Program-made: the position numbers and the translations under genes
The notes under the pieces: model-generated
What the model was told of the DNA's origin: nothing
Database searches by the model: none
The model's input: the letters and a program-made list of their open reading frames with translations, nothing else
Shown: positions 10,842 to 59,834 of the stretch, one piece after another
How the letters are laid out: every line of letters begins with the position of its first letter
Numbering within the stretch: position 1 is the first letter of the stretch
UHGV virus genome: UHGV-1558314
Strand: one strand, 5' to 3'
Origin: a virus
Length of the DNA: 64,000 nt

Positions 10842-10882
10842 TGTAACAGTGCATTTAAGTGTTTTAACAGTTTTATGTATAA

Positions 10883-10911
10883 ATTGTACAACAATGGGCA
10901 AAATTTTGCAT
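10883..10911 (-). promoter_or_regulatory. Sigma70-like promoter (ATGCAA-N17-TACAAT) for RNR
   Basis: Plus attgtacaac at 10883-10892, ttgcat at 10906-10911. Confidence 0.5.
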
Positions 10912-15971: not shown

Positions 15972-16000
15972 TATTGTACAATATGCATTGCTATTTTGCA
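15972..16000 (-). promoter_or_regulatory. Sigma70-like promoter (TTGCAA-N17-TACAAT)
   Basis: Plus attgtacaat at 15972-15981, ttgcaa at 15995-16000. Confidence 0.55.
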
Positions 16001-23339: not shown

Positions 23340-23470
23340 TGTTAATATTGTATTGATATTGTACAACATGCATTGCATATTTGCAATGATACAACATGCA
23401 AAATGCGCTTGCACTTTGATGCAAAGTGCTGCGTATACAACATGCATCGCGTATTCGCATTTGATGCAAT
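23340..23470 (-). repeat. Cluster of three tandem promoter-like repeat units (TTGCAN-N17-GTTGTA[CT]AAT variants)
   Basis: attgtacaacatgcattgcatatttgcaatg / atacaacatgcaaaatgcgcttgcac / gtatacaacatgcatcgcgtattcgcatttgatgc; related copies at 24515-24590 and 48250-48360. Confidence 0.55.
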
Positions 23471-24494: not shown

Positions 24495-24515
24495 GTGTAT
24501 AATTTGTATGAGATT

Positions 24516-24544
24516 ATTGTACAACATGCAAATGCATGTTGCAT
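24516..24544 (-). promoter_or_regulatory. Sigma70-like promoter (ATGCAA-N17-TACAAT)
   Basis: Plus attgtacaac at 24516-24525, ttgcat at 24539-24544. Confidence 0.5.
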
Positions 24545-24598
24545 TTGATGCAAAGTACTGCGTACACAACATAAAGTACAAGTTTGCTTTTGACAGAC

Positions 24599-25621
24599 TT
24601 ACTTTGTATTGCTACGCGTCATTGTTAAATGACCGCAATCATACACATCAACTTCTGTTTTGCCAAGCATGCATGTATGACAATTTATTTTGAAATCTAC
24701 TGCAGTGTAGTCAGGATAGTTTAGCGGAGATTCTTTTGACAAATCAATTTCAATTGTGTCAGTAGTTTTAAGTTGTTCAGTGCCTGCAATGATATCTGCA
24801 ATGAGATTGATAACATCTTCTTGTGAATCCCAGTCAAACACAGTTATGCAACGATAGCCTGCATCAAGCGCAAGTTTTGTTTTGTTGTAATGGTATTGCG
24901 CATCAAGTGGCTCATTTTTGTCAGACAATTTTGTTGCATATCGAAACCCAAGCGTGCTGTTATGCGATACGGTAGGATTGATTTCTACAAGCAATTTATG
25001 TGTGCCATCAATATCATATGACAAATCATATGAATAACGTTGAATTCTAACTGCGTCAAGCTGCATGTCAATGTGTAAATGACGCAATATTATTGCATGC
25101 CAATGCTTGTTGATGCCCGATATTATATTTGCAGCTTCCATGCATTTTGGATGCATTACAAAATACGGCACGCCAAAGCGTTCTTGTATTGTTTTGTATG
25201 CTTTTGCATTAGAATCTTTACCATAAATGCTGCCATAACGCTTAAGCTTTGTAGCAATCAACTTGTCTATGTCACCCATAGCATTGCCAAAGCGCTCAAT
25301 CTTATGCTGTTTAATGGCATCTTTGTCGCCAAACATATGACCATATCGAGACATCTTTGTTGCTTTGACTGCATTGATGTTGCAACCTGCACCATATCGA
25401 GCATGCATAGTTTGCATGCGTTTAGCAATGTGCTCTTGTGATTGCTTAATTTGTTCGGTGCCAAATTTGCGCAAATTATTGATACGCTTAGTAACATCTT
25501 GTTTAATGACTGAATGCGTGGTTGTTCGCTTGCCAAGTCTTACACATTCTGTAGTTTTGAGCAATGTATCTCGTTCAAACTCAATTTGTGCAATTCGTGC
25601 AACAATTTCTTTAGATGTCAT
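24599..25621 (-). CDS. Homing-endonuclease-like protein, paralog 2 (tandem K/R-Y/F-G repeats + Vsr-like nuclease motif)
   Basis: Repeats ...MSRYGHMFGD...IERFGNAMGD...LKRYGSIYGKD...; LLVEINPTVSHNSTLGF ... GYRCITVFDWD ... VDVYDCGH; ATG at 25619-25621. Confidence 0.75.
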   Translation of the reverse strand: MTSKEIVARIAQIEFERDTLLKTTECVRLGKRTTTHSVIKQDVTKRINNLRKFGTEQIKQSQEHIAKRMQTMHARYGAGCNINAVKATKMSRYGHMFGDKDAIKQHKIERFGNAMGDIDKLIATKLKRYGSIYGKDSNAKAYKTIQERFGVPYFVMHPKCMEAANIISGINKHWHAIILRHLHIDMQLDAVRIQRYSYDLSYDIDGTHKLLVEINPTVSHNSTLGFRYATKLSDKNEPLDAQYHYNKTKLALDAGYRCITVFDWDSQEDVINLIADIIAGTEQLKTTDTIEIDLSKESPLNYPDYTAVDFKINCHTCMLGKTEVDVYDCGHLTMTRSNTK

Positions 25622-25640
25622 TTTTAATAGCATATTGATA

Positions 25641-25670
25641 ATTATACAACATACAAATGAGTTTTGCATT
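25641..25670 (-). promoter_or_regulatory. Sigma70-like promoter (-10 TATAAT variant)
   Basis: Plus attatacaac at 25641-25650, ttgcat at 25665-25670. Confidence 0.4.
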
Positions 25671-25700
25671 TTTGATGTAGCAATTGCTTGCACAGTTTGC

Positions 25701-25737
25701 AAAAAAGAACCGCTTGCAATCTAATTGCAAGCGGTTC
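25701..25737 (-). terminator. Rho-independent terminator (14-bp stem + U tract on minus strand)
   Basis: aaaaaa gaaccgcttgcaat cta attgcaagcggttc. Confidence 0.7.
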
Positions 25738-25966: not shown

Positions 25967-27682
25967 TCAAATCCAGCCGTAGTCGCTGTGGATAGCGAAG
26001 GTGAGGTAAGCCAACTCGGGATACATACCCGTCTCCGCGAGAGCGTAATCCGACTCAATCAGCAACTTTGGCGCTGCTGTTCCTTCGGCTGTTAATTCCA
26101 CACTTGATGCAAGGTCATATGGCATGAATACACATCCCTGGTTGACATTCTCTACGTCAACACCGTCAGCAGTCTTGTTCGTACGAAGAACGAGAACAGT
26201 GTTGTCGTTCAGCGGCTGCTTAGGATTGCAATAGATTTTAATGCCAGCAAGGTCACCTGCGTAATACAGGTTTTTGTTGTCCTGTACCAGCGTATTGTCA
26301 AGAGCTGCAACAAAGTTTTTCTGAGCCTTAATTGCAACCAAGGCAATCGTATTGACCACAGCAGCATCACCAGCACCGAAACGCGACAGGTTGCCAATGA
26401 TTGCCGAAGCAGCCAGGATACGCGTTGCGATACGAGCCTGACGGGTAATCTGGTTCTCAGCCGAGCTGTTCGATTCAGCGTTCGGAACCATGCCGAATTC
26501 AGCCGTACGGTCTACACCCATCTTGTCGACAAATGCAGGAGCTTGGAATTCCGAGAATGCCTTGGCAGTCGAACCAGCGTAGCCAATGTACAAGTTCAGG
26601 TTGTAGCCCTGAGCAGCCAACAGCTGAGCATGTGTCGTAACACCAAGTGCACGCATGCGCTTCAGACCATTGTCATTGATTGACTGCGTGATTTCATTCT
26701 GCATTGCATTCTTGATGATTGCAACTGCATCCAAACCGCGAGCACGGAGGTCCTTAACCTGGCGACGAGTCAGAGCGCCCCAAGTCTGGTACGTCTTAAC
26801 TTCGATAGCCTTTGAGAAGGTGCGGAGCTCCAGCATGTTCGGGTTGCCAGCCTCAGCCTCAGAACGAGACATTGGGTTGCCGTCAAGGTCATCCATTGCA
26901 GCGAAGCCGTGGATGTGTTCGTCACCAGCCGAAACCAGGTCGAACATAACCTCAGTCATACCAGTCAGCAAGTCAGTTACAGCACCTGCAGCGTCAACCG
27001 AGTAGATTTTCGATGCAGCCATTGCAACATCAGCCAACGACTTGTCAGGAGCAACAGTCATTGCGCCACCTGCGCCTACAGTGTACACGCCCTCATTGCG
27101 AACTACGAGGTAGCCTGCAACACGCGATACCTGTACAAACGTTACTTTGGCAGCAAGCTCACCAGCAGCTGAACCGCCGATGTACAGAACTTGACCCTTC
27201 TTGAGGCCACGAACCATTGTCTGCGAAGCAACATTGTACAGTTCCTTCCACTTGATGAGGAAGTAGCGAGGACCCTTGGCAACATTCAGCTTGCCGCCAC
27301 CATACACGTAGTCTACATAGTCCAGCTGAACCAGCGGGCTGTAAACAGGAATGGTCGGGAGCAGGTCGAACAGAATCGTGTTGGCTGCGATGTTCATGTT
27401 CAGAGCCAGAACATTGGCAGCTACATCGATTGAACCACGCTTACGCGACGGGTCATGGAACTGTGCTTGCGTGCCTGGGTCAGCAGGGAAAGCGACCGGA
27501 CCTACGCCATTGAGATTCTGCGAATACGTCGACTCAAACGACTCGTTCATATACTGAACGTTCTGAGCGATTGATGCGAGCAGATACTTCTTAGCGGGCG
27601 AGAGCTTGGAGTCAAACGACTCATCAAGAACAGGGCCCCACTTTTTCAGCAATGCATCAATCTGTGTACGTTTTGCGTTCAT
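25967..27682 (-). CDS. Putative major capsid protein (571 aa) with N-terminal propeptide cleavage motif
   Basis: Markedly GC-richer codon usage than neighbours; N-terminal ...NVQYMNE/SFEST matches the recurrent xNE motif; late-type promoter upstream; family assignment not verified. Confidence 0.7.
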   Translation of the reverse strand: MNAKRTQIDALLKKWGPVLDESFDSKLSPAKKYLLASIAQNVQYMNESFESTYSQNLNGVGPVAFPADPGTQAQFHDPSRKRGSIDVAANVLALNMNIAANTILFDLLPTIPVYSPLVQLDYVDYVYGGGKLNVAKGPRYFLIKWKELYNVASQTMVRGLKKGQVLYIGGSAAGELAAKVTFVQVSRVAGYLVVRNEGVYTVGAGGAMTVAPDKSLADVAMAASKIYSVDAAGAVTDLLTGMTEVMFDLVSAGDEHIHGFAAMDDLDGNPMSRSEAEAGNPNMLELRTFSKAIEVKTYQTWGALTRRQVKDLRARGLDAVAIIKNAMQNEITQSINDNGLKRMRALGVTTHAQLLAAQGYNLNLYIGYAGSTAKAFSEFQAPAFVDKMGVDRTAEFGMVPNAESNSSAENQITRQARIATRILAASAIIGNLSRFGAGDAAVVNTIALVAIKAQKNFVAALDNTLVQDNKNLYYAGDLAGIKIYCNPKQPLNDNTVLVLRTNKTADGVDVENVNQGCVFMPYDLASSVELTAEGTAAPKLLIESDYALAETGMYPELAYLTFAIHSDYGWI

Positions 27683-27770: not shown

Positions 27771-29060
27771 TCATTTTTCAATCTTTTTGAGCAATGCATG
27801 ACCGCAATCATAGACTTCGACGAAGCCTGAAGCAATCAATGAGTCAACATCTATAGAAGACGTTCGTATAATATGTTCGTGTGTCTTGATATTGTATAGA
27901 TGACACTGAACCCATGTTTTGACGACTTCATAATTTGGATACAATCGAGGGTCTTCTTTTGACAAATCAAGTTCTATGACATCATCAGTTTTGAGCTGCT
28001 CAGTTTTGTTTATGACATCTCTAATGTGCAGCAACATATCATATCTACAATCCCAGTCAAATATTGTTATACATCGATAGCCATTGCGTGCTGCAACATC
28101 TGTTTTGAATTTGTGAGCATACGCAGGTTTGGCGTCATTATCAACAGAATGCCCAGTTATGTAACCAAAGCCCTTTGTTGCATTGTGTGTAACAGTTGGA
28201 TTGATTTCAATTACAACAGCATCTTTTCGCAAATCATATAACAAGTTCTCAATAGGATGCTCAGTAACAAAATCAAGATTGCAAGAATGTTTCAAATCCC
28301 ATTGCCACGACATATTGATGTTTGATGTCAACCTTGCAGATGCTTGCGGCAATTGCAATGCATGTTCTACACCATAGCGTTCACGTAATGTTGCATGAGC
28401 CCTTTGCATATTTTGCATTGCGGGACCCCAATGCTCAAATTTTGTAGCATTTATCTTTGCAATTTTGTCTGGTAGCTTATTTGTACTATCTACACCATAT
28501 TTAATAAGACAACTGATGCGAATATTGTATTGTCGTTTTATTCGAGAATGTGACGTAGCACATCTACTAAATCGTTCAAATGGTGTTGATGCAATCAATG
28601 CATCTCGTTCTGACTCAAGAGCTTTGACATGTTCAAGCACTTCTGCTGGTACATTATCATAGTCAATCACATATTGCTGACGTGGTTGCGTTACATGAGT
28701 TTTGCCGTGTGTCTTAAGCTTATTGATTTGTATGCTATACTTTCTGCGTATATGTGGATGTCTTGATGCATCAGATTGCGCAATTTCATGCTCTCGTTGC
28801 TCTTCAAGTTTAGCTATTTGCTCAACAATAGCTGGTTCAATGTCTGGTTTGTCTGATATGACTATGTTTTTAAGCTCATCAAGACGCTTGTTGAGATATT
28901 TGACACGTCTTGTATATGTTATCTTTGCAACTTGATGGTTTGTATGATGCTTGCCTACTTGCTGTTCTGGTTGATTCAGCGTGTCATCAAGGCGTTGCTT
29001 AGCGAGCTCAAATTCATTATCAAGCCATGCTTTATGCGCATCAAATTCATCTTGTGTCAT
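27771..29060 (-). CDS. Homing-endonuclease-like protein, paralog 3
   Basis: VVIEINPTVTHNATKGFGY ... GYRCITIFDWDCRYD ... VEVYDCGHALL. Confidence 0.75.
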   Translation of the reverse strand: MTQDEFDAHKAWLDNEFELAKQRLDDTLNQPEQQVGKHHTNHQVAKITYTRRVKYLNKRLDELKNIVISDKPDIEPAIVEQIAKLEEQREHEIAQSDASRHPHIRRKYSIQINKLKTHGKTHVTQPRQQYVIDYDNVPAEVLEHVKALESERDALIASTPFERFSRCATSHSRIKRQYNIRISCLIKYGVDSTNKLPDKIAKINATKFEHWGPAMQNMQRAHATLRERYGVEHALQLPQASARLTSNINMSWQWDLKHSCNLDFVTEHPIENLLYDLRKDAVVIEINPTVTHNATKGFGYITGHSVDNDAKPAYAHKFKTDVAARNGYRCITIFDWDCRYDMLLHIRDVINKTEQLKTDDVIELDLSKEDPRLYPNYEVVKTWVQCHLYNIKTHEHIIRTSSIDVDSLIASGFVEVYDCGHALLKKIEK

Positions 29061-46480: not shown

Positions 46481-47736
46481 TAACTGTCATACGACCAGTG
46501 ACCACAGTCATACACTGGCACAAATCCAGTGTCAAGCATTTCTTGCTCATTAAAGTCATCATCAAGCAAGTGTTCACCCGATTTTGTATTAACCCAGTGC
46601 TTCTTAATTGTGCATTCATCAACCGCAAAGGGATTAAGTACATTGTCAGTACAGTCAATGAACGCATCATTCAAATGCGCTTCAATGATATGAAGCACAA
46701 TTTCTTGGTCGTGCCAATCAAATATCATGAGTGGCGTGTAGCCACATGCAATTGCAAGTTGTTGCTTCCACCAATGATAGTTTGGCTATTTTGCTTCTGC
46801 AGCATTTCGTTTAAAGCCATACACGCTATTATGAGTATGCGTCGGGTTAACGTCAATTAGCAGATTGCCATAATACAGGTCATATGACGTTATGCCAACA
46901 CCATGTTCAAACTCAAAATGCACACCAAGATGTTCTTCAATGTATGATTGCCACCATCTGTTTGGCGCAGATATGATTTGCCCATTTGCTTGCATACATT
47001 TATTTGTCATGCAAAACCATGGCACACCGTAACGTTCCATACAGGTTTTTGAAATTGCAGCAAGCCATTCATCTTTGTCTCTATGCGGCCATGCATAACC
47101 ATAACGCAGACGGCATGTTTGTTGAGCTTTAGCAACGATTGGCGCTAAACGTTCACCGTATATTTCACGTTTAGTTGCGATGGCTTTGCGTGGATTAGTC
47201 CATCCAGCATCACCCCATCGCTCAAGCTTCGTTTGCTGAGATTTTTCAACAATCAGTTCAAGATTCTCACCATATTTTTGACGACGAGTTTGCATTGCTG
47301 CAACATAATCTGTAATGCATCTATGGCCATACAAACGTTCTTTTGTCGCACATTGAACATCTACTGGACCTTGTGGATAGCCATAGCGTTCCATATTCGT
47401 TTGACGAATATGTGCTTTATCGCCATATGAACTGCCGTAGCGTGCAACTTTAGTGGCAATTGTTTGCTTGATGTTGCCTGCTTTAGAACCATAACGAGCT
47501 TCTTTAGTTGCTACGCATTTTTGTTTGACTTCTGCTCTGTTCCAATTATGCTCAACGCCATGTTTACGAAGATGGCCAATTTTCATGTTGTACACGTTTT
47601 TGATATGACCATGAGATGTCTTACGTGGTGCATATCGTACAAATGGTGTTTCTGCAAGCAACTTATCTCGTTCAGCTTCAAGCTCTTTAATTCGAGCTTC
47701 AAGAGCTTCACCAGTCAAAGGCTCTACATGTTTCAT
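46480..47736 (-). pseudogene. Homing-endonuclease-like paralog 4 interrupted by a single in-frame TAG (46786-46788)
   Basis: ORFs 46786..47736 and 46480..46728 are in the same frame; intervening codons read *PNYHWWKQQLAIACGYTPLMIFDW and align with intact paralogs. Confidence 0.7.
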
Positions 47737-48233: not shown

Positions 48234-48249
48234 TAAAATTCCTATATAA

Positions 48250-48360
48250 ATTGTACAACATGCAAAATGTTTTTGCACCATTTTGATACAACATGCATTG
48301 CATATTTGCAATGATGCAAAGTACGATGTACACAACATGCATTGCATATTTGCAATCATA
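48250..48360 (-). repeat. Three tandem promoter-like repeat units (about 35-40 bp each)
   Basis: attgtacaacatgcaaaatgtttttgcacc / gatacaacatgcattgcatatttgcaatg / gtacacaacatgcattgcatatttgcaatc. Confidence 0.55.
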
Positions 48361-49734: not shown

Positions 49735-51225
49735 TTATGCCTTTTTAGATTTACGCTTTGCAGCAACTACGACTTCTGCTACGATAGCTTCTACAGTAGC
49801 TTCAGTTACAACAGACTTGTCTGCAACTTTTACAAGAGCTGCATGCAACTTGTAGTTGCCGACTTTGCTGAAAATGCACTTGAATTCTGTTGTTGCATTG
49901 TATTCTGCAGGTACTGCAAAACCACTGTCAGGACCCCATACACCACTATCTTCGAATGTCCAAGGCTGACCCTGTGAATCTGTTGCAGTGAATGTCACAT
50001 GACCATCTTCAGGTGCTTCTACAATTTCATATTGCAGCTGAACGCCATCAACACCAGCTGTGCCAACTACTTCAGTTGCAAGTGTTGCATTGATTGCAAC
50101 TTCTGTTGCAGGCTGAATGCTTGCAGGGACATCTACAGAAATCTTGTATTCTGATACTTCAGGCTGAACTGGCTCAGCAACAACTACTGTAGACTCTGTT
50201 TCAACAACTACACTGTCATCAGCAACCTTGGCAAGAACTGCATGCAATTTGTATGTGCCTGCCTTGCTAAAGATTACAGTGAACTTTGTAGTTGCATTGT
50301 ATTCTGCTGGAATGTCAAAGCCTACTGCAGGACCCCATGTGCCATTGTCGACAAACGTGTATTCCTCGCCAGTTGTGTCAGTAGCCTTGAATGTCACATG
50401 GCCATCTTCAGGTGCTTCGTCTACACCATAGCGGAACTGAACTTTGTCAACACCGACATCACCAACAGTCTTCGTTTTGAATGTTGCATCAAGCTCAACT
50501 TCAGTGTTTTCGATGATTGTTTCAGGCGCAGACATTTCAAACTCATACTCAGATACTGTTTGCACAGCTTGTTCAAGTTTGATGTTCTTTGTCTTGTTTG
50601 AAATCATAGTTTCACGACCAGCCTGGCTAACGTAGCCCTCTTTAGACACTTCCCAGACAATTTCTTCGCCTGACAAAACAGTCAACGAATTGCGAACTTC
50701 ACCATTCATCTTGACAACTGCATCTGCAGGTTCTACATTGATTGTCAGTGTAGCTTTGCTGAGCTCAACAAGCTCCACTACTTGAATGACATCATGGTTT
50801 GTGAGCGTGATTGTGCCCTCCTGAGATTCATAGCCCTCTTTCGACACTTCCCACTTAATTGGAATGCCTGCAGGCACATTCTCAAGCATCTTTGTAGCCT
50901 CACCATTGATTTCTACGTGAGCATCTTCAGGCACAGGCTGAATTGTGATGCTGAACTTATCTTTGCCAGGTTCAGGGTCTGGTCCTGGTCCTGGGTCATC
51001 ACCAGTAATTGCAGGGATGATAGTGTTTTCGATGACTTTCTGAGCTTCTGCAGTTGTGCCATAGAATTTGAGCGTTTTCTTGGCTTCTTCTACAGACATT
51101 TTCTCAAGATTGTCTGCAAGATATGTCAGACCAGTGACTGCAGCAATTTTCTGCCGCATTTCTGGGCTAATGACTACACCAGTAGATTTGACTACTGGAG
51201 CAGCTTGTTTTTGTTTCTTTGCCAT
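49735..51225 (-). CDS. Ig-like-repeat protein (about 496 aa); possible capsid decoration protein
   Basis: Two about 110-aa repeats (VSEYEFEMSAPETI...YKLHAVLAKVAD and VSEYKISVDVPASI...YKLHAALVKVAD) plus two shorter repeats; ATG at 51223-51225 (MAKKQKQ). Confidence 0.7.
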   Translation of the reverse strand: MAKKQKQAAPVVKSTGVVISPEMRQKIAAVTGLTYLADNLEKMSVEEAKKTLKFYGTTAEAQKVIENTIIPAITGDDPGPGPDPEPGKDKFSITIQPVPEDAHVEINGEATKMLENVPAGIPIKWEVSKEGYESQEGTITLTNHDVIQVVELVELSKATLTINVEPADAVVKMNGEVRNSLTVLSGEEIVWEVSKEGYVSQAGRETMISNKTKNIKLEQAVQTVSEYEFEMSAPETIIENTEVELDATFKTKTVGDVGVDKVQFRYGVDEAPEDGHVTFKATDTTGEEYTFVDNGTWGPAVGFDIPAEYNATTKFTVIFSKAGTYKLHAVLAKVADDSVVVETESTVVVAEPVQPEVSEYKISVDVPASIQPATEVAINATLATEVVGTAGVDGVQLQYEIVEAPEDGHVTFTATDSQGQPWTFEDSGVWGPDSGFAVPAEYNATTEFKCIFSKVGNYKLHAALVKVADKSVVTEATVEAIVAEVVVAAKRKSKKA

Positions 51226-51315
51226 AAGATATTGTGAATTTGGTTGTTTATTCTTAACAAAATATGTACATACAGATGCAACAGATGATATGTCAGATAC
51301 ACAAAGCTGCATAAA

Positions 51316-51355
51316 ATGACCAGACTTGCAAATAAATTTAAGCAAGTCTGGTCAT
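51316..51355 (-). terminator. Hairpin terminator downstream of polymerase C-part
   Basis: atgaccagacttgc aaataaatttaa gcaagtctggtcat. Confidence 0.6.
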
Positions 51356-51369
51356 CAGTTTTGATTGCA

Positions 51370-52662
51370 CTACAACAATGACGGCACTCGTTGAGTTTCA
51401 AGTGGGTCGCTGACATTGATGCCTGTGTATGCAACAAGTCGTTGTATTGGGCCAAGTACGAGTTTTTCGAACATGAGTCGTTTGTTCATTGGCGGCACAT
51501 CTGGCATATACTTCGGTGTCGGCATTTCGCCTGGTGCAAAGCCAAATGCATCGCAATATTGACGAGAGCCAATTGGGATATTTGACAAATCTGACTTTGC
51601 TCTGTCAACAAAGTAGTAGAACACTCGACCGCCTTCAATCAATGGGTATCGTGTTTCCAATCCATGAGCTTTTACAAGACGATTATGCCAACAACATGCC
51701 CTGTACTGAGGCAGTACACCTTTTGCTAACTGCCATTCGCCATCATAGCTTAACACATAGTCATGATACTTGTTTGCATTGACATATGCACAAAGTTTTT
51801 CCAAGTCTTGCTCAGCTTCAAAGCGTTTCCATAATTTCTGTATGAGCTTTGGATATGTCGCAGAAGTCAATTCACCTCTGAACATTTTTTTGAATGCATA
51901 ATCAAGCATTTGCCTAACAAGCATTGATGAGCCTGTTTGAATAAGTTCGATGCCCTTACCTTGAATATGCTCAGTAGGGTCTTCAAATACTCGACCATCT
52001 ACATATATTTGAGACTTCAAATACTTTTTCTTTTGGGCAAATAATGCAGTATCAGAAATCGTCTCAAGGTCGAACATTAGCACAGAATCTCCATGACGCT
52101 TTGCAAGGTCATTTGCATATGACCTATTGAACAGTTCTTCCATACGATATTTGAATATCGCAAGAATCAAGTCATACCAATTTTTGCCTGTGTAACCAAT
52201 TGACTTAACTGTCGGCTCAAAGTGAATGTACAAAGAGTCTGTGTCAATATACAGCACTTTGTCTTCATAGGGTTCTTGCTTTGGCGACACAGACAAATCA
52301 AAATTGCCTTTCAATTTGGGGTCATTGCGCAGCTTTTCATGCAATTCATAATCACACCACCATTTATTGTTGAGATAGTCATTTGCTACTCGTTCGCCAA
52401 AGTGAATGAAGTTACGCCCTTCTGCAGTAATTGATTCTGCAACTGCCATATTGAAGAAGTGATAGAATCGATTACTTGTCGCACCATAAATACTGTTCCT
52501 TAGTGTTTTGAACGTCACCTGCAATGACGCATGTTTAAGCGACTCTTGTATTGCAAAGCCACGTAATTCAAATAGACGCTCAGTAGACAACTGACTCAAA
52601 TCGCCAGTTAAATCTACTCCATCTATTTCAATTTTTGACATGTCTATCTGAGCTTCTGCCAT
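51370..52662 (-). CDS. Family-B DNA polymerase, C-terminal part (motifs B and C)
   Basis: FKTLRNSIYGA (KxxxNSxYG) and LYIDTDSLYI (DTDS). Confidence 0.9.
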   Translation of the reverse strand: MAEAQIDMSKIEIDGVDLTGDLSQLSTERLFELRGFAIQESLKHASLQVTFKTLRNSIYGATSNRFYHFFNMAVAESITAEGRNFIHFGERVANDYLNNKWWCDYELHEKLRNDPKLKGNFDLSVSPKQEPYEDKVLYIDTDSLYIHFEPTVKSIGYTGKNWYDLILAIFKYRMEELFNRSYANDLAKRHGDSVLMFDLETISDTALFAQKKKYLKSQIYVDGRVFEDPTEHIQGKGIELIQTGSSMLVRQMLDYAFKKMFRGELTSATYPKLIQKLWKRFEAEQDLEKLCAYVNANKYHDYVLSYDGEWQLAKGVLPQYRACCWHNRLVKAHGLETRYPLIEGGRVFYYFVDRAKSDLSNIPIGSRQYCDAFGFAPGEMPTPKYMPDVPPMNKRLMFEKLVLGPIQRLVAYTGINVSDPLETQRVPSLL

Positions 52663-52683
52663 AAGGTATCTTATTTAATTATT

Positions 52684-52712
52684 ATTGTACAACACACATT
52701 GCAATTTTGCAA
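52684..52712 (-). promoter_or_regulatory. Sigma70-like promoter (TTGCAA-N17-TACAAT)
   Basis: Plus attgtacaac at 52684-52693, ttgcaa at 52707-52712. Confidence 0.55.
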
Positions 52713-52726
52713 TATGTGTGTTAAAC

Positions 52727-52762
52727 AAAAATGCAGCAGCAGAACATCTGCTGCTGCATCGG
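52727..52762 (-). terminator. Rho-independent terminator
   Basis: aaacaaaa atgcagcagcag aacat ctgctgctgcat. Confidence 0.6.
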
Positions 52763-52801
52763 CAGGTATCTTCACATGTATTTGAGTTGATTACGATGTG
52801 A

Positions 52802-53629
52802 TTAGAATGGCAGGTCACCATCGTCACCTGCAGCGCCAAATTCAGCTGCAATGTCATATACCAACGTCATTGCGATTCGCAAATCGCGCTTCTTAGACTT
52901 CAGGCGCATGATATCATGACCAGAATTGTTTGTGATGACTGAACATTCAAACTCTTCATTGCCATCAATAAATGACAACATTGATTTGTGAATTGTGATT
53001 GGCGATAAATCAGATGGGTAATTTGCATCAATCACATATTCAAAGTTGTTGTTCTTGGCAATTAGTCCTCGTTCAGTCGTACGAATCTCAATGCCGGGCA
53101 ATTCCTTATCACCAGTATTCAATGAGCCATACGATGACATGATGCCAAAGTGATTTGACGTCAAATCGAGTTTTCTTAGATTTGTTGTGCTGTCAAACAA
53201 CATTGACATATCATTGTCAGACAGCTCAAAGTAGCCAAGTGATGGCATTGAACAAACCTGATTGATTTTGAGCTGATTGTTTGAGATTACAATGAGCTCT
53301 GCAATTGTATCTGTGCCAATTTGTTTGACATAGATTTCAATCATTGCAGATGAGCCAAATGCAGCAAGTACTCGATTGTTAAACTGTGTGCCGTTGTAAA
53401 TGAGCGCCTTGACTGTGACATCTTTGAGCGTCGACTCATAATGCTCACAAATATCAAGAACATTGAGCGTCTGTGATTTTACAAAGCTGCTGTTGCCAGC
53501 ATCAGTTCTGATTCGCTGGTCATTAAGTGAAAAGCTAAGCTTGCCATCGCACTTTAATGATGATGCAAACAATGCTCGCAGCATATCAATGTTTGCATTG
53601 CGTAACGTAATTTTGTTCAAAGTTTCCAT
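52802..53629 (-). CDS. Hypothetical protein (275 aa) with SSB-like acidic C-terminal tail
   Basis: C-terminus ...GAAGDDGDLPF resembles the DDDIPF SSB tail; body not recognisably OB-fold; function unknown. Confidence 0.65.
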   Translation of the reverse strand: METLNKITLRNANIDMLRALFASSLKCDGKLSFSLNDQRIRTDAGNSSFVKSQTLNVLDICEHYESTLKDVTVKALIYNGTQFNNRVLAAFGSSAMIEIYVKQIGTDTIAELIVISNNQLKINQVCSMPSLGYFELSDNDMSMLFDSTTNLRKLDLTSNHFGIMSSYGSLNTGDKELPGIEIRTTERGLIAKNNNFEYVIDANYPSDLSPITIHKSMLSFIDGNEEFECSVITNNSGHDIMRLKSKKRDLRIAMTLVYDIAAEFGAAGDDGDLPF

Positions 53630-53697
53630 CTTGTATCTATGTTGTTGATTTTCAATTTAATATATTGAACAACATTTGTTGACATTTTGCAACATTG

Positions 53698-54072
53698 TCA
53701 TCGATTGTCGCCTGACCCATGCAGTACGCCTCGTAATTTTCGAGACTGTAGTTTCTGAATGTTAAGCTGACAAATGTCAGTTAAGCTGTAGCCCAAATCA
53801 TGTGCAAGAGTTGCAGCATACCACATGACATCGCTAAGCTCTTTTGCGATTTCCTTGCGAATGTCTTCATTGTCAAAATCACCATTCTTGTCTCGAATGA
53901 CTTTTTTGACTTTGTCTGCAACTTCGCCTGCTTCACCCGTCAAGCCAAGCGTTGGATAGACAATTGCAGCTGATTTAGGATACACTGCGCTATCAAGTGC
54001 AGCAGTCTGATATTCATCAATGGTTGAAATACAAGTGTGGTCAATTACACCATGTTCATCTCGTTTAAGCAT
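53698..54072 (-). CDS. mazG: MazG-like nucleotide pyrophosphohydrolase
   Basis: LTGEAGEVADKVKK ... KELSDVMWYAATLAHDLGYSL. Confidence 0.75.
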   Translation of the reverse strand: MLKRDEHGVIDHTCISTIDEYQTAALDSAVYPKSAAIVYPTLGLTGEAGEVADKVKKVIRDKNGDFDNEDIRKEIAKELSDVMWYAATLAHDLGYSLTDICQLNIQKLQSRKLRGVLHGSGDNR

Positions 54073-54073
54073 A

Positions 54074-54565
54074 TCATTTACGTTTTTGTTTGACTCTTAA
54101 TCGTTTTTGCATAAATGCTCTTGTAGCTTCACCAAAAGCCATCTCGTCTCGTTCGCCACCACAAAGCTTTGCAAGCTTATTGAATGTGTCTTGGTCAATC
54201 ATTGTGTACGTTGAGTTGTTGACCACATGCAATGCAAACTGAATCAGCGGTGCGCCTGGCTGCAAGCAGAACGGCTCTTTGCCCGCATTGTACACTGCAA
54301 GATGAATCTCGCCATGATAGTCTGAATCTACAAACTCACTTGTTTTGATGATAAGATGATTTCGTGAAATGCCCGACTTATTGTAGGCAATCAATGCATG
54401 ACAGGCAGGCACAAGTGCTTTGATGCCAGATGGAATTGCAATGCCCTCACCAGGTTGCAGCATTGTTTGCACAAAATCATTGGGTATGCAAAAGTCCCAT
54501 GCGCCAGATTCTGCTGTTGACTTAAAAGGACTTTCTACATTTCTGCATTTTGCAAAGAATAACAT
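54074..54565 (-). CDS. dUTPase / dCTP deaminase superfamily protein
   Basis: GAWDFC (motif 1-like), IAIPSGIKAL, VDSDYHGEI (motif 3), PGAPLIQFAL (motif 4-like). Confidence 0.75.
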   Translation of the reverse strand: MLFFAKCRNVESPFKSTAESGAWDFCIPNDFVQTMLQPGEGIAIPSGIKALVPACHALIAYNKSGISRNHLIIKTSEFVDSDYHGEIHLAVYNAGKEPFCLQPGAPLIQFALHVVNNSTYTMIDQDTFNKLAKLCGGERDEMAFGEATRAFMQKRLRVKQKRK

Positions 54566-54588
54566 ATTAAGTATGTGTTTGTATGTTG

Positions 54589-54939
54589 TTAGTACATTTC
54601 TCGTTTAACAAGAGCTTTGCGTTTTGAGCGTAACCCTGCCCTATTACGTAATTCTACTGACCAATCACGAATCATTTGCCATGCAATCCCACCACGTTGA
54701 ATACCACCGTGCTTGAACATTTCATTGCAAATACCTTGAATAAACACCGCATCAGACTTTGTCAATGCGTCAACAATTTGACCATGGTTGTCTTCTGTCT
54801 TGACATCATTACAGAGCTTAAGTTCATCTACTGAAAGTTCGCCAAGCAGCTCATAGTAGTATATGAGAGCTTTGCGTGCGGCAATTGCTTTTCTTGAATT
54901 GCCAGAATAAGACAAAGTTACATGTTTGCTCATATTCAA
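54589..54939 (-). CDS. Hypothetical protein (116 aa)
   Basis: ORF track; no motif. Confidence 0.55.
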   Translation of the reverse strand: MNMSKHVTLSYSGNSRKAIAARKALIYYYELLGELSVDELKLCNDVKTEDNHGQIVDALTKSDAVFIQGICNEMFKHGGIQRGGIAWQMIRDWSVELRNRAGLRSKRKALVKREMY

Positions 54940-54959
54940 TTATTGTTATTATATGTTGA

Positions 54960-54988
54960 TATTGTACAACATGTGTTAACTTTTTGCA
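54960..54988 (-). promoter_or_regulatory. Sigma70-like promoter (ATGCAA-N17-TACAAT)
   Basis: Plus attgtacaac at 54960-54969, ttgcat at 54983-54988. Confidence 0.5.
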
Positions 54989-56175
54989 TGACCACAATCA
55001 TACACCGCAACATAGCCAGCATCAATCATCTCTTGCTCATCTTGTCCGCAATCTTCAATATGTTCTTTTGTCTTCAAATGACACCAGTGTTTGCGAATTG
55101 TTGACTTGTCATCTGACAATTGCGGATTGAGTGCGAAGTCAGTTGAGTCTACTGGTTCACCTGCAAGATGCTTTCTAATGACATCAATGACAACATCAAA
55201 TGGCATCCAGTCAAACACTGTAATGCAAGTGTAGCTGTGTTTGATAGCAAGTTGTGTTTTGTTAAAATGGTTGTCATATGGTCGTTGCCAATTATGATTT
55301 GCATTGAACACAATATTTGCAAAACTACGCGTGCTATTATGAGAAATAGTTGGGTTAAGTTCAATTAGCAACTTATGCGATTTGCAAACAATGTCATATG
55401 ACAATGACGTGTTCTCAAATGTAAATTCTTGCTCAAAATGCACATCAAGGTTATCAAATAGCATGTTAAGCCTTGTGCATATTTTTGTATTGTGTGCAGA
55501 CTTTGCTTTAGATTTTGCTCTGCATTGAGGCAATTGGCATGGCCACACTACACCATGACGTGACAATGTTGTTGCACGAATTGCGTCAAGATTCGTTGAT
55601 GGATTGCCATATCGAGCTATTCGAGTTTGCCTTGCTTTGTCTATATTGCCTGGGCCTGCATTGCCCCATCGCTGCAACTTTGTTTGTCGAGCTTGTTCAT
55701 GATTGCTGTAATATGGGTCTCCATATCGTTCAAGCTTTGTTTGCTTTAACTTACTCATGTCGCCAAGCCCATTGCCATACTTAGCACGCTTTGTTTCTAT
55801 GCCTTTCTTTAGATTGCCTCGTTTGTTGCCATATTTTGCAATGTTGTGTGCATTACGTTTTTCAATGTCACCAAACCCATTGCCATATCGTGCAAATTTT
55901 GTTGCTTGCGCTTTTTCAAAATTGACTGCTAATGTGCCATAACGAGCATACTTAGTTGCTTTGCCCTTATCAACGACTTCTTTACGATGCAATGCAGCTT
56001 CAACACCATATTTTCGCAAATTTGTAATTTTTGCATTGTATCGTCGTCTAATTGTTGCATGAGTGTTGTTACGAGACCCTGTTCTGACATATTCAGTTGC
56101 AGCAAGTTCAGCATCACGTAACTGCTCAAGTTCTGCAATTCGTTGTTCAAGTTCAGCGCCTACAAGTGGTTTCAT
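54976..56175 (-). CDS. Homing-endonuclease-like protein, paralog 5, between the two polymerase ORFs
   Basis: Seven about 17-aa repeats with (K/R)YG core; LLIELNPTISHNSTRSF ... SYTCITVFDW ... VAVYDCGH. Confidence 0.75.
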   Translation of the reverse strand: MKPLVGAELEQRIAELEQLRDAELAATEYVRTGSRNNTHATIRRRYNAKITNLRKYGVEAALHRKEVVDKGKATKYARYGTLAVNFEKAQATKFARYGNGFGDIEKRNAHNIAKYGNKRGNLKKGIETKRAKYGNGLGDMSKLKQTKLERYGDPYYSNHEQARQTKLQRWGNAGPGNIDKARQTRIARYGNPSTNLDAIRATTLSRHGVVWPCQLPQCRAKSKAKSAHNTKICTRLNMLFDNLDVHFEQEFTFENTSLSYDIVCKSHKLLIELNPTISHNSTRSFANIVFNANHNWQRPYDNHFNKTQLAIKHSYTCITVFDWMPFDVVIDVIRKHLAGEPVDSTDFALNPQLSDDKSTIRKHWCHLKTKEHIEDCGQDEQEMIDAGYVAVYDCGHAKS

Positions 56176-56183
56176 GTGTTGTT

Positions 56184-57689
56184 TTACAATTTGATTGCGC
56201 CTCTACGAGCAAGCTCTTCTTCAATCAATCGAACATGATTGTTAGAATACCAGAACTGAATTTTTTTGTGATAATTACGCTTGTCTCCAAGTTCTTCCTG
56301 TACTGCTTTGTACATGCTTTTTTCATGATTGTCATACAAGCAGTCATTAACGGACACAAAGTACTCTGGCAATGACTTGTAATGCGCAATTTCATCAGGA
56401 TTTGTCAGACGTCTGATAAAGTTATCCGGTGATACATTGCATGATTTCATTGAACTTGGATAGAGTGAATTTGCATCAACACAAACAACTTTATGAGCCC
56501 AATGGTTAAATGGTTGCTTCACAAAGCCACCTTCAAATGCATGCACAACATTTTCTGGACCGCCTTGAGCACATACGACTTTGCCACCATATTTGTTGTA
56601 CAAATATGTCATCATGACGCCCTCAGATTGCTTAACTGGGCCTTGACAGTGGTTCATATCAATGTTTGACACATTTGACAAGCCCATCACATTTGATATC
56701 AAGTCAGTTTTTGCAGCAATCATCGCATTGACCATCGTATCGACAGCATTATATGCAATGAACGTGCATGGATGATACAAATACAGCTCTTTAAGTGTAC
56801 AATCATAGGGCAGCTTACCTACACCGAACATACGATGTGCAATATAGTCAAGTCGCAATGACTCTTTTTGCCACACTGAATAGTCGTATGTGTCCATGAG
56901 CTGCATGTAGTCATCAATGTACTTGTGATATGGCATACCATTGCCCCAGACAGTTCTGCCAACTGGAGATGCCAATGCTAAATCAATATTGTGCATTGCG
57001 CATCGATTTTTGACATAGATGTTGTCGAAGCCATTGATGTTCCAGCCTGTCAATGCAGGAATGTTTTTGAAGAGCTTAGTCACCCAAAAATGCAACAATT
57101 CATGCTCATTTGCATGTTGAAAGATTTTGACAGTTGGATGTTCTTTCAAATACGCAGCAAAGCAATGTTGACCCATGTACTCTTGAATGATGCCATTGAC
57201 AAACTCAAATGCATCATCCAGTGTTGGGTTTTGTTTGCCACAGCTTTTGCGCAAATCATCATCATTCAACAAGTCAACAGTAGTCTGAATGACACAATTG
57301 CATTGTTCATCGCATGTACTTATTGCATTAATGGGCATTTCAGCTTTGTCAGGCTTTGGAAAGCCATTGCCAATTTCAGTCTCAATATCGTAAAAGTATA
57401 ACTTTGGTCTACGATAAGCAAACAATTCAACTTTGTCAGCTTCAGGCAATTCAAATAAGAATTGCAGCAAGTCAAATTGATTGAATCGTTTTGCTGTGAC
57501 TCGAGTCACAGGCAATTTGCGCCAATCTTGAATATCTGCATATTGCGGCTCTACATGGTCTGATATTTGCCATACTGGAAATTGATATGGCTGTTCACAG
57601 ACTGGGTATGTTTTGATGTCAATGCCACCTTGCTCATTAACGTATGAAACTTCAATGCCATGTGACAAATATGCTACGTCGACAATCAT
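56184..57689 (-). CDS. Family-B DNA polymerase, N-terminal part (3'-5' exonuclease motifs + polymerase motif A)
   Basis: LYFYDIETE (Exo I), NINGFDNIYV (Exo II), YNAVDTMV (Exo III), VCVDANSLYPSS (motif A); ATG at 57687-57689. Confidence 0.9.
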   Translation of the reverse strand: MIVDVAYLSHGIEVSYVNEQGGIDIKTYPVCEQPYQFPVWQISDHVEPQYADIQDWRKLPVTRVTAKRFNQFDLLQFLFELPEADKVELFAYRRPKLYFYDIETEIGNGFPKPDKAEMPINAISTCDEQCNCVIQTTVDLLNDDDLRKSCGKQNPTLDDAFEFVNGIIQEYMGQHCFAAYLKEHPTVKIFQHANEHELLHFWVTKLFKNIPALTGWNINGFDNIYVKNRCAMHNIDLALASPVGRTVWGNGMPYHKYIDDYMQLMDTYDYSVWQKESLRLDYIAHRMFGVGKLPYDCTLKELYLYHPCTFIAYNAVDTMVNAMIAAKTDLISNVMGLSNVSNIDMNHCQGPVKQSEGVMMTYLYNKYGGKVVCAQGGPENVVHAFEGGFVKQPFNHWAHKVVCVDANSLYPSSMKSCNVSPDNFIRRLTNPDEIAHYKSLPEYFVSVNDCLYDNHEKSMYKAVQEELGDKRNYHKKIQFWYSNNHVRLIEEELARRGAIKL

Positions 57690-57700
57690 ATTATTATCTT

Positions 57701-58111
57701 TTAGAATAGAGATATTGTACAACAATTTGATTCAGGTTGCCATTCTACAATATGCGCATCAAAGTGTTTGTTAAGCCAATGTGCAAGTATGTGTCTATGA
57801 CAAAATGCAGATGGTCTGCACCAACATAACAATACAATGTCTCGTTCGCCTGCAAAAATCTTTATGCGATGCAGCATCAAACTTATCTGTGACAATGCAG
57901 CGTCAAGTTTTGCTGCATATTGCTCTGCATATTGTGCATTGTCAAGCAAGCCTGCTTTATGCAAACGAACAAGTGACATGTAATCAGGCATGACGTCAGT
58001 CCATGTAAAATCTGCTATGAAGCCCTTAGGCTTTGTTGCAGACACTTGAACAAGAAATGCGTTATCAGGCAGATGCCTGCATGCATAATATGAAGTCAAG
58101 ATTCTTGTCAT
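57701..58111 (-). CDS. Hypothetical protein (136 aa), DUF488-like
   Basis: DIVLLCWCRPSAFCHRHILAHWL resembles the conserved DUF488 core; tentative. Confidence 0.55.
   Translation of the reverse strand: MTRILTSYYACRHLPDNAFLVQVSATKPKGFIADFTWTDVMPDYMSLVRLHKAGLLDNAQYAEQYAAKLDAALSQISLMLHRIKIFAGERDIVLLCWCRPSAFCHRHILAHWLNKHFDAHIVEWQPESNCCTISLF
57714..57742 (-). promoter_or_regulatory. Sigma70-like promoter (-10 TACAAT) for polymerase N-part
   Basis: Plus attgtacaac at 57714-57723; -35-like ttgcca at 57737-57742. Confidence 0.45.
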
Positions 58112-59763: not shown

Positions 59764-59806
59764 CTTATTTATGATTTGATGTCTTGTATTTATATTATAT
59801 GTTGAT

Positions 59807-59834
59807 ATTGTACAACGCTAAGTGTCATTTTGCA
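59807..59834 (-). promoter_or_regulatory. Sigma70-like promoter (GTGCAA-N16-TACAAT)
   Basis: Plus attgtacaac at 59807-59816, ttgcac at 59829-59834. Confidence 0.5.

What the first reader, a model, noticed from the sequence alone, without database searches (positions are those of the whole stretch)
51370..57689. Family-B DNA polymerase encoded as two ORFs 3.5 kb apart with five genes in between
Exonuclease motifs I-III and polymerase motif A are in 56184..57689; motifs B and C are in 51370..52662. Between them lie a homing-endonuclease-like gene (immediately after the N-part stop), a 116-aa unknown, dUTPase-like, MazG-like and the SSB-tail protein, each with its own promoter or terminator. Splits next to homing endonuclease genes are known in some T4-like phages, but a five-gene intervening region is unusual; it suggests a two-subunit polymerase, not a spliced one.
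Basis: seen in the sequence. Interest (0 to 1): 0.7.

Follow-up and report, generated by a model that had tools for sequence, protein, structure and literature searches.

The report
Phage DNA polymerase in two pieces
This phage makes its T4-type replicative DNA polymerase from two separate genes broken at the tip of the "fingers" domain. The arrangement is real and conserved, but it is already known from T4-like phages and visible in published relatives, so it is a new example, not a new kind.

Summary
On the minus strand, 56184..57689 encodes the N-half of a family-B polymerase (Exo I-III, motif A). 51370..52662 encodes the C-half (motifs B, C, KKxY, thumb). The halves match gp43 residues ~61-486 and ~522-886, collinear and non-overlapping.

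The break lies at the fingertip (T4 residue ~503-508). That is the site of the gp43A/gp43B split in Aeromonas and Acinetobacter T4-like phages, whose halves are reported to co-purify and be active. I found no intein, intron or assembly error. Both halves are under purifying selection.

The split is shared by phages PAU, PTm1 and MA9V-1/2, and by about 100 protein clusters. In one huge phage the halves lie 280 kb apart.

A multi-gene gap is not unusual: phage 133 has eight ORFs there and PAU has four. The "SSB-tail protein" has a sliding-clamp fold and is the one gene found in the gap in every linked relative examined. The endonuclease-like gene is a recent 1.2-kb insertion, absent from a 94%-identical relative, so it did not cause the split. 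Four genes, including both halves, carry the same promoter-like motif.

Verdict: two-subunit polymerase supported; a new member of a known kind; modest interest.

The parts
56184..57689 (-). PolB N-half (501 aa): N-terminal domain, 3'-5' exonuclease (Exo I-III), palm motif A, and the first fingers helix; it ends ...EEELARRGAIKL*
   Evidence: Pfam DNA_pol_B_exo1 E 2.5e-12 and PHROG 2062 E 1e-59. Matches T4 gp43 residues 61-486. Motif positions. Start codon supported by P0011.
57713..57743 (-). Promoter-like site for the N-half (ATGGCA-N18-TACAAT, core TGTTGTACAATA), 23 nt before the ATG and inside the 3' end of the upstream DUF488 gene
56242..56482 (-). Divergent patch in the N-half 3' region (63-82% identity to the endonuclease-less relative L006, against ~94% elsewhere). 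Possibly a co-conversion tract or the endonuclease target/immunity region.
Evidence: Sliding identity.
54950..56180 (-). 1,231-bp insertion cassette relative to L006. It begins right after the N-half stop codon and carries the endonuclease gene plus a promoter-like site at its 3' end.
   Evidence: blastn breakpoints and junction sequences
54976..56175 (-). Free-standing homing-endonuclease-like gene (399 aa): N-terminal K/RYG helical repeats (DUF7487) and a C-terminal Vsr-like PD-(D/E)xK nuclease domain
54960..54988 (-). Promoter-like site (TGCAAA...TGTTGTACAATA) for the 114-aa gene. Its -35 part overlaps the last endonuclease codons, and it is absent from L006.
54589..54933 (-). 114-aa protein of unknown function (listed as 116 aa from a TTG start)
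   Evidence: no family match. Called as 114 aa in L005 and L006.
54074..54565 (-). dUTPase (163 aa)
   Evidence: Pfam PF00692 E 3.5e-10. A dUTPase also lies in the gap in PAU (gp106) and L007.
53698..54072 (-). MazG-like nucleotide pyrophosphohydrolase (124 aa)
   Evidence: Pfam PF03819 E 8e-9 and PHROG 229 E 1e-35
53663..53692 (-). Promoter-like site for the clamp gene (TTGCAA...TGTTGTTCAATA)
52802..53629 (-). Sliding-clamp-like processivity factor (275 aa, pI 4.99) with an SSB-like C-terminal tail, DDGDLPF
52730..52760 (-). Intrinsic-terminator-like hairpin (14-bp stem, then a T run) after the clamp gene
52683..52712 (-). Promoter-like site for the C-half (TTGCAA-N17-TACAAT), 20 nt before the ATG
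51370..52662 (-). PolB C-half (430 aa): second fingers helix with motif B, palm motif C, KKKY, thumb, and a hydrophobic C-terminal tail ...QRVPSLL
   Evidence: Pfam DNA_pol_B E 1.7e-15 and PHROG 1918 E 1.7e-48. Matches RB69 residues 529-773 and RB49 residues 518-886. dN/dS 0.089.

Best explanation
The phage encodes its T4-type family-B replicative DNA polymerase as two independently expressed polypeptides that associate non-covalently into one enzyme.

The N-half holds the N-terminal domain, the proofreading exonuclease, palm motif A and the first long fingers helix. The C-half holds the second fingers helix (motif B), palm motif C, KKxY and the thumb, and so probably the clamp-binding C-terminus.

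The break is in the loop at the tip of the fingers hairpin. Inferred: the two helices re-pair and the palm sheet, to which both halves contribute, reassembles.

The gap is a variable cargo region. Its constant element is the polymerase's sliding clamp. Here it also carries dUTPase, MazG, a small unknown gene, and a recently acquired free-standing Vsr-like endonuclease gene that inserted into an intercistronic gap that already existed.

Both halves, the clamp gene and the 114-aa gene each sit behind the same sigma-70-like promoter motif, which would give coordinated expression.

What is shown: gene structure, homology, split position, conservation, selection, and endonuclease-gene polymorphism. 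What is inferred: physical association and activity of the halves, promoter function, and clamp binding by the C-half tail.
For: - Complementary, collinear homology to gp43, with all catalytic motifs intact.
- Split point at T4 gp43 residue ~503-508 in the window, MA9V-1/2, PAU and PTm1. The T4-like split forms break at 504-512.
- 43A and 43B of phage 25 are reported to co-purify and polymerise (PMC2988022). An engineered Pfu polymerase split at the fingertip is reported fully active, even when reconstituted from separate fragments (PMC3061061).
- Among 143 cluster representatives related to the N-half, 103 end at the fingertip and 37 are contiguous.
- In huge phage LR756504 the 495-aa and 408-aa halves are separate ORFs about 280 kb apart on opposite strands.
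- Independent metagenome contigs (L005, L006, L007) show the same split.
- dN/dS against L006 is 0.089 for the C-half, 0.185 for the N-half 3' end and 0.065 for the clamp.
- No Rfam hit and no intein domain.
- A terminator-like hairpin lies between the clamp gene and the C-half.
- The promoter-like motif occurs 13 times against 0.96 expected, including in front of both halves.
- The endonuclease cassette is absent from L006 while the split is intact.
Against: - No direct evidence here that the two proteins bind each other or are active. I could not run a two-chain structure prediction.
- The alignment around the fingertip is loose, so the split position is good only to about +/-5 residues.
- Contiguous relatives (for example P0015, 990 aa) sit inside the split-dominated group in a rough NJ tree. 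The history of splits and fusions is therefore unresolved.
- Some 'split' representatives could be ORFs cut by contig ends.
- Promoter and terminator calls are pattern matches only.
- Iyer et al. (PMC7824862) report a second, minimal split Pol III alpha in group 2.2 jumbo phages, the group in which they place PTm1. The family-B enzyme might therefore not be the only polymerase in this lineage.
Confidence: 0.88

Rival explanations
1. The endonuclease gene created the split. Its insertion into a once-contiguous polymerase gene broke the gene in two, as proposed for mobE in nrdA of phage Aeh1.
For: The endonuclease gene starts 8 nt after the N-half stop. This endonuclease family is mobile in this phage population. 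Endonuclease-associated splits are described in T4-like phages (PMC2988022).
Against: L006 (94% identical flanks) lacks the 1,231-bp cassette but has the same N-half stop and the same split. PAU, MA9V, PTm1, L007 and LR756504 share the break without this endonuclease gene at that spot. An older, since-lost mobile element as the original cause cannot be excluded.
Confidence: 0.05
2. The two halves are joined after translation by a split intein (protein trans-splicing), or at the RNA level by an intron.
For: Relatives do use this route elsewhere in the gene. PTm1 has a split intein at motif C with a VSR endonuclease gene between the pieces. Phage MIJ3 has an intein-associated split PolB (PMC6892783).
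Against: The N-half ends ...ARRGAIKL and the C-half begins MAEAQIDM. There are no intein A/B or F/G blocks, no HN+Cys/Ser/Thr junction, and Pfam finds no Hint domain. The combined length of 931 aa leaves no room for ~135 aa of intein. Rfam finds no group I or II intron at gathering score or at E<=1. Five conserved, selected genes, a terminator and promoters lie in the gap. In LR756504 the halves are on opposite strands.
Confidence: 0.02
3. The polymerase is a decaying or non-functional remnant, or the halves work apart (for example the N-half as a stand-alone exonuclease), and another polymerase replicates the genome.
For: Group 2.2 jumbo phages are reported to carry an additional minimal split Pol III alpha (PMC7824862). 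No activity data exist for this lineage.
Against: All exonuclease and polymerase motifs are intact. dN/dS is 0.09-0.19. Both halves are retained together across lineages only 25-36% identical. Motif A (N-half) and motif C (C-half) each supply a catalytic aspartate (established polymerase biochemistry), so neither half can polymerise alone.
Confidence: 0.04
4. A sequencing or assembly error, or two fragments of different paralogous polymerases.
For: None found.
Against: Three independent contigs from different samples, plus isolate genomes, show the same architecture. Only one N-type and one C-type piece exist in the window. Both halves show parallel identity to each relative: MA9V-2 36% and 34%, PAU 28% and 25%, LR756504 26% and 27%.
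Confidence: 0.01

Closest known systems
Acinetobacter phage 133 gp43A/gp43B (T4-like; Petrov et al. 2006 and 2010, as summarised in PMC3061061)
   Same: Family-B polymerase split at the fingertip into ~500-aa and ~390-aa proteins. The two genes are ~2.9 kb apart with several unrelated ORFs between them, eight in NC_015250.
   Different: Phage 133's halves are 59-60% identical to contiguous T4 gp43 and only 24-27% identical to this window's halves, so the split arose independently. No clamp, dUTPase or MazG gene is annotated in its gap (one phosphatase, tk.4, and seven hypotheticals), and the clamp-loader genes lie upstream of 43A.
Aeromonas phages 25 / 44RR / 31 / 65 (and Asfd_1) gp43A/gp43B
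   Same: Same fingertip break. Phage 25 has a free-standing seg-type endonuclease gene between the halves. The halves co-purify and are active (PMC2988022).
   Different: The halves are adjacent, with a gap as short as 2 bp (PMC3061061) and 58 nt in Asfd_1. The endonuclease is of a different family (GIY-YIG seg against Vsr-like here). The phages belong to a different lineage.
Sphingomonas phage PAU gp105 + gp110, Chryseobacterium phages MA9V-1/2, Tenacibaculum phages PTm1/PTm5/pT24
   Same: Closest relatives among the phage genome records searched (25-36% identity). They share the split point, the N-half...clamp...C-half layout, and in PAU a dUTPase in the gap.
   Different: The cargo differs: TnpB in MA9V-2, and a further split-intein break at motif C in PTm1. 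None has this endonuclease gene after the N-half. Their clamps lack the DDGDLPF tail.
Huge phages LR756501-LR756504
   Same: Homologous N-half and C-half ORFs ending and starting at the fingertip.
   Different: The halves are unlinked: ~280 kb apart on opposite strands in LR756504. In LR756501, tblastn places them more than 100 kb apart (ORF ends not checked there).
Methanothermobacter thermautotrophicus split PolB and the engineered split Pfu polymerase
   Same: Two-polypeptide family-B polymerases that reconstitute activity. The Pfu split is at the fingertip (PMC3061061).
   Different: The Mth split is in the palm, about 83 residues further on (PMC3061061). These are archaeal enzymes, and the Pfu split is artificial.

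Membership tests
Family-B (T4 gp43-type) replicative DNA polymerase | 3'-5' exonuclease motifs Exo I (DxE), Exo II (Nx2-3F/YD) and Exo III (Yx3D) | tested here: met
   FYDIETE, GWNINGFD and YNAVDT in the N-half; Pfam DNA_pol_B_exo1 E 2.5e-12
Family-B (T4 gp43-type) replicative DNA polymerase | Polymerase motifs A (DxxSLYPS), B (Kx3NSxYG), C (YxDTDS) and KKxY | tested here: met
   DANSLYPS in the N-half; KTLRNSIYG, YIDTDS and KKKY in the C-half
Family-B (T4 gp43-type) replicative DNA polymerase | Collinear homology to gp43 over the whole enzyme | tested here: met
   N-half matches T4 residues 61-486; C-half matches T4 522-767 and RB49 518-886; no other piece in the window
Family-B (T4 gp43-type) replicative DNA polymerase | DNA polymerase and proofreading activity | not testable with these tools
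   Needs biochemistry
Fingertip-split bicistronic gp43 (43A/43B type) | Two ORFs, each with its own start and stop, with the break between the two fingers helices | tested here: met
   Junction after T4 residue ~503 in a MAFFT alignment with T4, RB49, Asfd_1, PAU, PTm1 and MA9V; phage 133 43A/43B match T4 residues 3-502 and 512-897
Fingertip-split bicistronic gp43 (43A/43B type) | No intein or intron at the junction | tested here: met
   No Hint/intein Pfam hit; no Rfam hit; the lengths sum to 931 aa
Fingertip-split bicistronic gp43 (43A/43B type) | Descent from the T4-like (Straboviridae) split lineages in which the type was described | tested here: not met
   Asfd_1 and phage 133 halves are 49-60% identical to contiguous T4 gp43 but only 23-27% identical to the window halves; in the NJ order they pair with T4 and RB49. 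Same mechanism, independent origin.
Fingertip-split bicistronic gp43 (43A/43B type) | The halves associate and are jointly active | not testable with these tools
   Precedent only (PMC2988022, PMC3061061)
Split-intein 'fractured gene' (as in PTm1 ORF239/241 and MIJ3) | Intein N-blocks at the end of the N-piece; C-blocks ending in HN followed by Cys/Ser/Thr at the start of the C-piece | tested here: not met
   The N-half ends ARRGAIKL and the C-half starts MAEAQIDM. For contrast, PTm1 has YADTD|SVVGDS... and ...VHN|SNY.
Group I or group II intron-interrupted gene | Intron RNA structure at the junctions | tested here: not met
   cmscan of 51000-58200 at E<=1 and of the whole window at gathering score gave 0 matches
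Free-standing homing endonuclease (Vsr-like / EDxHD PD-(D/E)xK type) | Nuclease fold | tested here: inconclusive
Free-standing homing endonuclease (Vsr-like / EDxHD PD-(D/E)xK type) | Presence/absence polymorphism at a precise intergenic site next to a conserved gene, and multiple paralogues | tested here: met
   1,231-bp cassette absent from L006. A paralogue is inserted at window position 52726 in L005. Paralogues lie at 46483-47736, 24599-25702 and 27771-29060.
Free-standing homing endonuclease (Vsr-like / EDxHD PD-(D/E)xK type) | Site-specific cleavage of the endonuclease-less allele | not testable with these tools
   Needs an in-vitro cleavage or co-infection assay
Sliding clamp (gp45 / PCNA / beta) | DNA-clamp fold domains | tested here: met
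Sliding clamp (gp45 / PCNA / beta) | Two-domain length, acidic pI, and a gene next to the polymerase gene | tested here: met
   275 aa, pI 4.99. Homologous to PAU gp109, which was predicted to be a clamp on the same criteria (PMC4889955).
Sliding clamp (gp45 / PCNA / beta) | A cognate clamp loader in the genome | not tested
   None seen among the window ORFs I annotated. The rest of the genome is not available.
   The fold is clamp-like. Only the C-terminal DDGDLPF resembles an SSB tail.

The most novel reading that the evidence does not exclude
The fingertip split is not a neutral scar but a maintained adaptation of this jumbo- and huge-phage clade.

An open fingertip could let the polymerase accept bulky or modified dNTPs, as the engineered split did for Pfu polymerase (PMC3061061). 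That would fit the extensive DNA modification reported for PAU (PMC7824862). It would also fit the nucleotide-pool enzymes (dUTPase, MazG, an upstream DUF488 protein) clustered around the halves.

The clamp gene embedded between the halves, here ending in an SSB-like DDGDLPF tail, would belong to the same distinct replisome design.
Probability: 0.12. Interest if true: 0.65.

Novelty: new member of a known kind. Interest (0 to 1): 0.3.

Why it matters
The finding adds little that is new in principle. Fingertip-split gp43 with multi-gene gaps and neighbouring endonuclease genes was described in T4-like phages in 2006-2010. The PAU, PTm1 and MA9V genomes already annotate two polymerase genes.

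Three things are useful:
- The split is the dominant state in a large, deep clade. About 100 clusters at 50% identity show it, including huge phages whose halves are unlinked. It arose independently of the T4-like cases at the same structural site, which marks the fingertip as a naturally permissive break point in family-B polymerases.
- Annotation pipelines should pair these half-genes instead of calling them fragments or pseudogenes.
- The near-identical contigs with and without endonuclease cassettes around the polymerase halves form a neat natural system for studying free-standing endonuclease homing next to an essential gene.

Tried and rejected
- Megablast of 51000-58200 against the phage collection found no match. 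Relatives were reachable only at protein level.
- hmmsearch of the clamp-family alignment against PDB sequences gave only spurious leucine-rich-repeat hits.
- hhalign of that alignment against the Asfd_1 gp45 gave probability 0.7%. The clamp assignment therefore rests on the fold search and on homology to PAU gp109.
- The generic sigma-70 scan was not clearly enriched (32 sites against 23 +/- 4.6) and the terminator count was at chance (8 against 6.1 +/- 2.9). Only the phage-specific motif found by eye and tested is significant.
- The MA9V-2 369-aa protein after its N-half is not related to the window endonuclease or clamp.
- Both AF2 models have low overall confidence (mean pLDDT 54 and 59) because the alignments had only four sequences. 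Only their better-modelled domains were used.
- The Petrov 2006 and 2010 papers could not be read directly. Their content is cited through PMC3061061 and PMC2988022.
- No paper mentions DUF7487.
- I did not try a fused or two-chain structure prediction of N-half plus C-half.

Full report
**What is in the sequence**

Seven consecutive ORFs lie on the minus strand of 51370..57725.
- The first (56184..57689) is 501 aa from the ATG. The 62%-identical homologue P0011 starts at the same residue.
- This ORF matches Pfam DNA_pol_B_exo1 and PHROG 2062. The last ORF (51370..52662, 430 aa) matches Pfam DNA_pol_B and PHROG 1918.
- Against the full-length family PHROG 262 (856 positions), the two ORFs cover positions 111-490 and 505-842.
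- phmmer against PDB aligns the N-half to T4/RB69 gp43 residues 61-486. It aligns the C-half to RB69 residues 529-~773.
- tblastn with whole gp43 finds only these two collinear pieces in the window.
- Exo I, II, III and motif A are in the N-half. Motifs B, C and KKKY are in the C-half. All are intact.

**Where the break is**

I aligned the concatenated halves with contiguous T4-like and RB49 gp43.
- The junction falls after T4 residue ~503 in the window, MA9V-1/2 and PTm1, and after ~508 in PAU.
- This lies between the two long fingers helices. By my own recollection the RB69 fingers domain spans residues 469-572.
- The Aeromonas (Asfd_1) and Acinetobacter (phage 133) split polymerases break at the same place. 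Their halves match T4 residues 3-504 and 512-898.
- The alignment is loose in this loop, so the position is good to about five residues.

**Not spliced, not an artefact, not decaying**
- The N-half ends ARRGAIKL and the C-half begins MAEAQIDM. No intein blocks or Hint domain are present.
- The halves sum to 931 aa, against 898 aa for T4 gp43.
- For contrast, PTm1 does carry a recognisable split intein at motif C (YADTD|SVVGDS... / ...VHN|SNY), with a VSR endonuclease gene between the pieces.
- Rfam finds nothing, even at E<=1.
- Three metagenome contigs from different samples show the same arrangement.
- dN/dS against the 94%-identical contig L006 is 0.089 for the C-half, 0.185 for the N-half 3' end, and 0.065 for the clamp.

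**The split is a lineage trait**

Among the phage genome records searched, the closest relatives are Chryseobacterium phages MA9V-1/2 (36% and 34% identity), Tenacibaculum phages PTm1/PTm5/pT24, Sphingomonas phage PAU, and uncultured huge phages. All have separate N and C genes.

| Genome | Layout between the halves |
|---|---|
| PAU | gp105 (N) - dUTPase - gp107 - gp108 - gp109 - gp110 (C) |
| MA9V-1 | N - 356 aa - 291 aa - C |
| MA9V-2 | as MA9V-1, plus a TnpB gene |
| PTm1 | N - ORF237 - ORF238 - C, with C itself broken by a split intein |
| L007 | six genes in the gap |
| LR756504 | 495-aa N ORF and 408-aa C ORF ~280 kb apart, opposite strands |

- A whole-library search with the N-half returned 150 cluster representatives. 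Of the 143 that are at least 400 aa long, 103 end at the fingertip, 37 are contiguous and 3 are unclear.
- In a rough NJ ordering the split state fills one large group, with scattered contiguous members such as P0015.
- The T4-like split forms pair with contiguous T4 and RB49, so they are independent events.

**What lies in the gap**

- Kazlauskas et al. predicted PAU gp109 to be a T4-like sliding clamp (PMC4889955).
- An AF2 model is confident only for residues 1-128.
- The pI is 4.99.
- The DDGDLPF tail is shared only with close relatives.
- This clamp gene is the one element found between the halves in every linked relative examined.
- dUTPase recurs in PAU, L007 and the close relatives. 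MazG and the 114-aa gene recur only in the close relatives.

*Endonuclease gene.* The 399-aa gene matches DUF7487 and PHROG 3339 'homing endonuclease'.
- It is mobile. L006 aligns to the window up to the N-half stop and resumes 1,231 bp later, so window 54950..56180 is an insertion.
- Contig L005 has a 37%-identical paralogue inserted at window position 52726, between the clamp terminator and the C-half promoter. This is the same gap that holds TnpB in MA9V-2.
- The window holds further paralogues next to the major capsid gene. It also holds one copy with an internal stop.
- The endonuclease gene therefore entered an already split gene, the possibility Edgell et al. raised for seg43 of phage 25 (PMC2988022).
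- A patch of the N-half (about 56242-56482, which includes motif A) is only 63-82% identical to L006, against ~94% elsewhere. This could be a co-conversion tract or target-site immunity. That reading is inference.

**Expression signals**
- A 14-bp hairpin followed by a T run lies after the clamp gene, at 52760..52730.
- I noticed a shared sequence in front of two genes and tested it. TGTTGTACAATA, with up to one mismatch, occurs 13 times in the window against 0.96 expected; no shuffle reached 13.
- With its upstream TTGCAA it reads as a sigma-70-like TTGCAA-N17-TACAAT promoter.
- Copies sit 20-33 nt before the starts of the N-half, the 114-aa gene, the clamp gene and the C-half. None sits before the endonuclease, dUTPase or MazG genes.
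- The copy before the 114-aa gene overlaps the last endonuclease codons and is missing from L006. It therefore arrived with the cassette.
- The likely transcription units are [N-half + endonuclease], [114 aa + dUTPase + MazG], [clamp] and [C-half]. The two halves share one promoter class. These are pattern matches, not mapped transcripts.

**Comparison with what is known**
- Hansen et al. summarise Petrov et al. 2006 and 2010. Natural splits occur in the fingertip of gp43 in the T4-like 133/44RR/31/25/65 group, with the two ORFs 2 bp to 3 kb apart (PMC3061061).
- NC_015250 shows eight ORFs in the 2.9-kb gap of phage 133.
- Phage 25 43A and 43B co-purify and polymerise (PMC2988022).
- Split Pfu polymerase reconstituted from fragments behaves like the wild type (PMC3061061).
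- The mechanism and the multi-gene gap therefore both have direct precedents.
- In the papers I could search, I found no discussion of the family-B split in the PAU/PTm1 lineage. Iyer et al. describe a split Pol III alpha but not this split (PMC7824862). GenBank and PHROGs nevertheless already treat the halves as separate polymerase genes.

**Verdict**

This is a genuine, functional-looking two-subunit family-B polymerase. It is a new member of a known kind, from a lineage where the split is ancient and widespread. Interest is modest (0.3).

The most novel reading still open is that the open fingertip is an adaptation to modified nucleotides. I give it about 12%.

Noticed in passing
window 52802..53629 (-): A protein with a sliding-clamp fold ends in DDGDLPF, which resembles the bacterial SSB C-terminal tail. 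The tail is conserved in close relatives (DSDDLPF, DDDDLPF) but not in the PAU, PTm1 or MA9V clamps. It might recruit host proteins that normally bind SSB.
   Followed up: partly
window 673-684, 10882-10893, 15972-15983, 23357-23368, 24515-24526, 48249-48260, 52683-52694, 53663-53674, 54960-54971, 57713-57724, 59806-59817 (all -): A phage-specific promoter-like motif, TTGCAA-N17-TACAAT (core TGTTGTACAATA), occurs 13 times against ~1 expected. Eleven copies are on the coding strand; for eight of them a start codon of an ORF of at least 50 aa lies 15-42 nt downstream.
   Followed up: partly
window 46483..47736, 24599..25702, 27771..29060, 23475..24581 (all -): There are at least four more members of the same endonuclease family or a related one. 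Three bracket the major capsid gene (25967..27682). The copy at 46483..47736 has an internal stop at 46786, whereas L005 and L006 carry it intact (418 aa, 93% identical).
   Followed up: partly
L005 2322..3535; L001 7007..8173: The short gap between the clamp gene and the C-half is a repeated landing site for mobile genes: a 382-aa paralogue of the endonuclease gene in contig L005 and a TnpB gene in phage MA9V-2.
   Followed up: partly
L004 6696..9502 (Tenacibaculum phage PTm1): The PTm1 polymerase is in three pieces: the fingertip split, plus a split intein at motif C (YADTD|S ... VHN|S) with a VSR endonuclease gene between the intein halves.
   Followed up: partly
window 56242..56482 (-): A patch of the N-half that includes motif A is 63-82% identical to the endonuclease-less relative L006, against ~94% in the flanks. 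The 60 bp next to the insertion site are 97% identical.
   Followed up: partly
window 57701..58111 (-): A DUF488-N3a protein (Pfam E 1.8e-9) is encoded directly upstream of the N-half. The N-half promoter-like site lies in its 3' end. Its function is unknown; a role in nucleotide or DNA modification is a guess.
   Followed up: no
window 49735..51345 (-): A protein with head-fibre dimeric domains and a PEGA domain is encoded directly downstream of the C-half. It contains an internal ~200-290-bp repeat (50505-50219 and 50019-49820). Its length varies among close relatives: 494, 526 and 536 aa.
   Followed up: no
window 52695..52719 (-): A near-palindrome, ACACATATTGCAAAATTGCAATGTGTG, overlaps the -35 element of the C-half promoter. 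Similar TGCA...TGCA pairs flank the -35 region of several other copies. It may be an operator.
   Followed up: no
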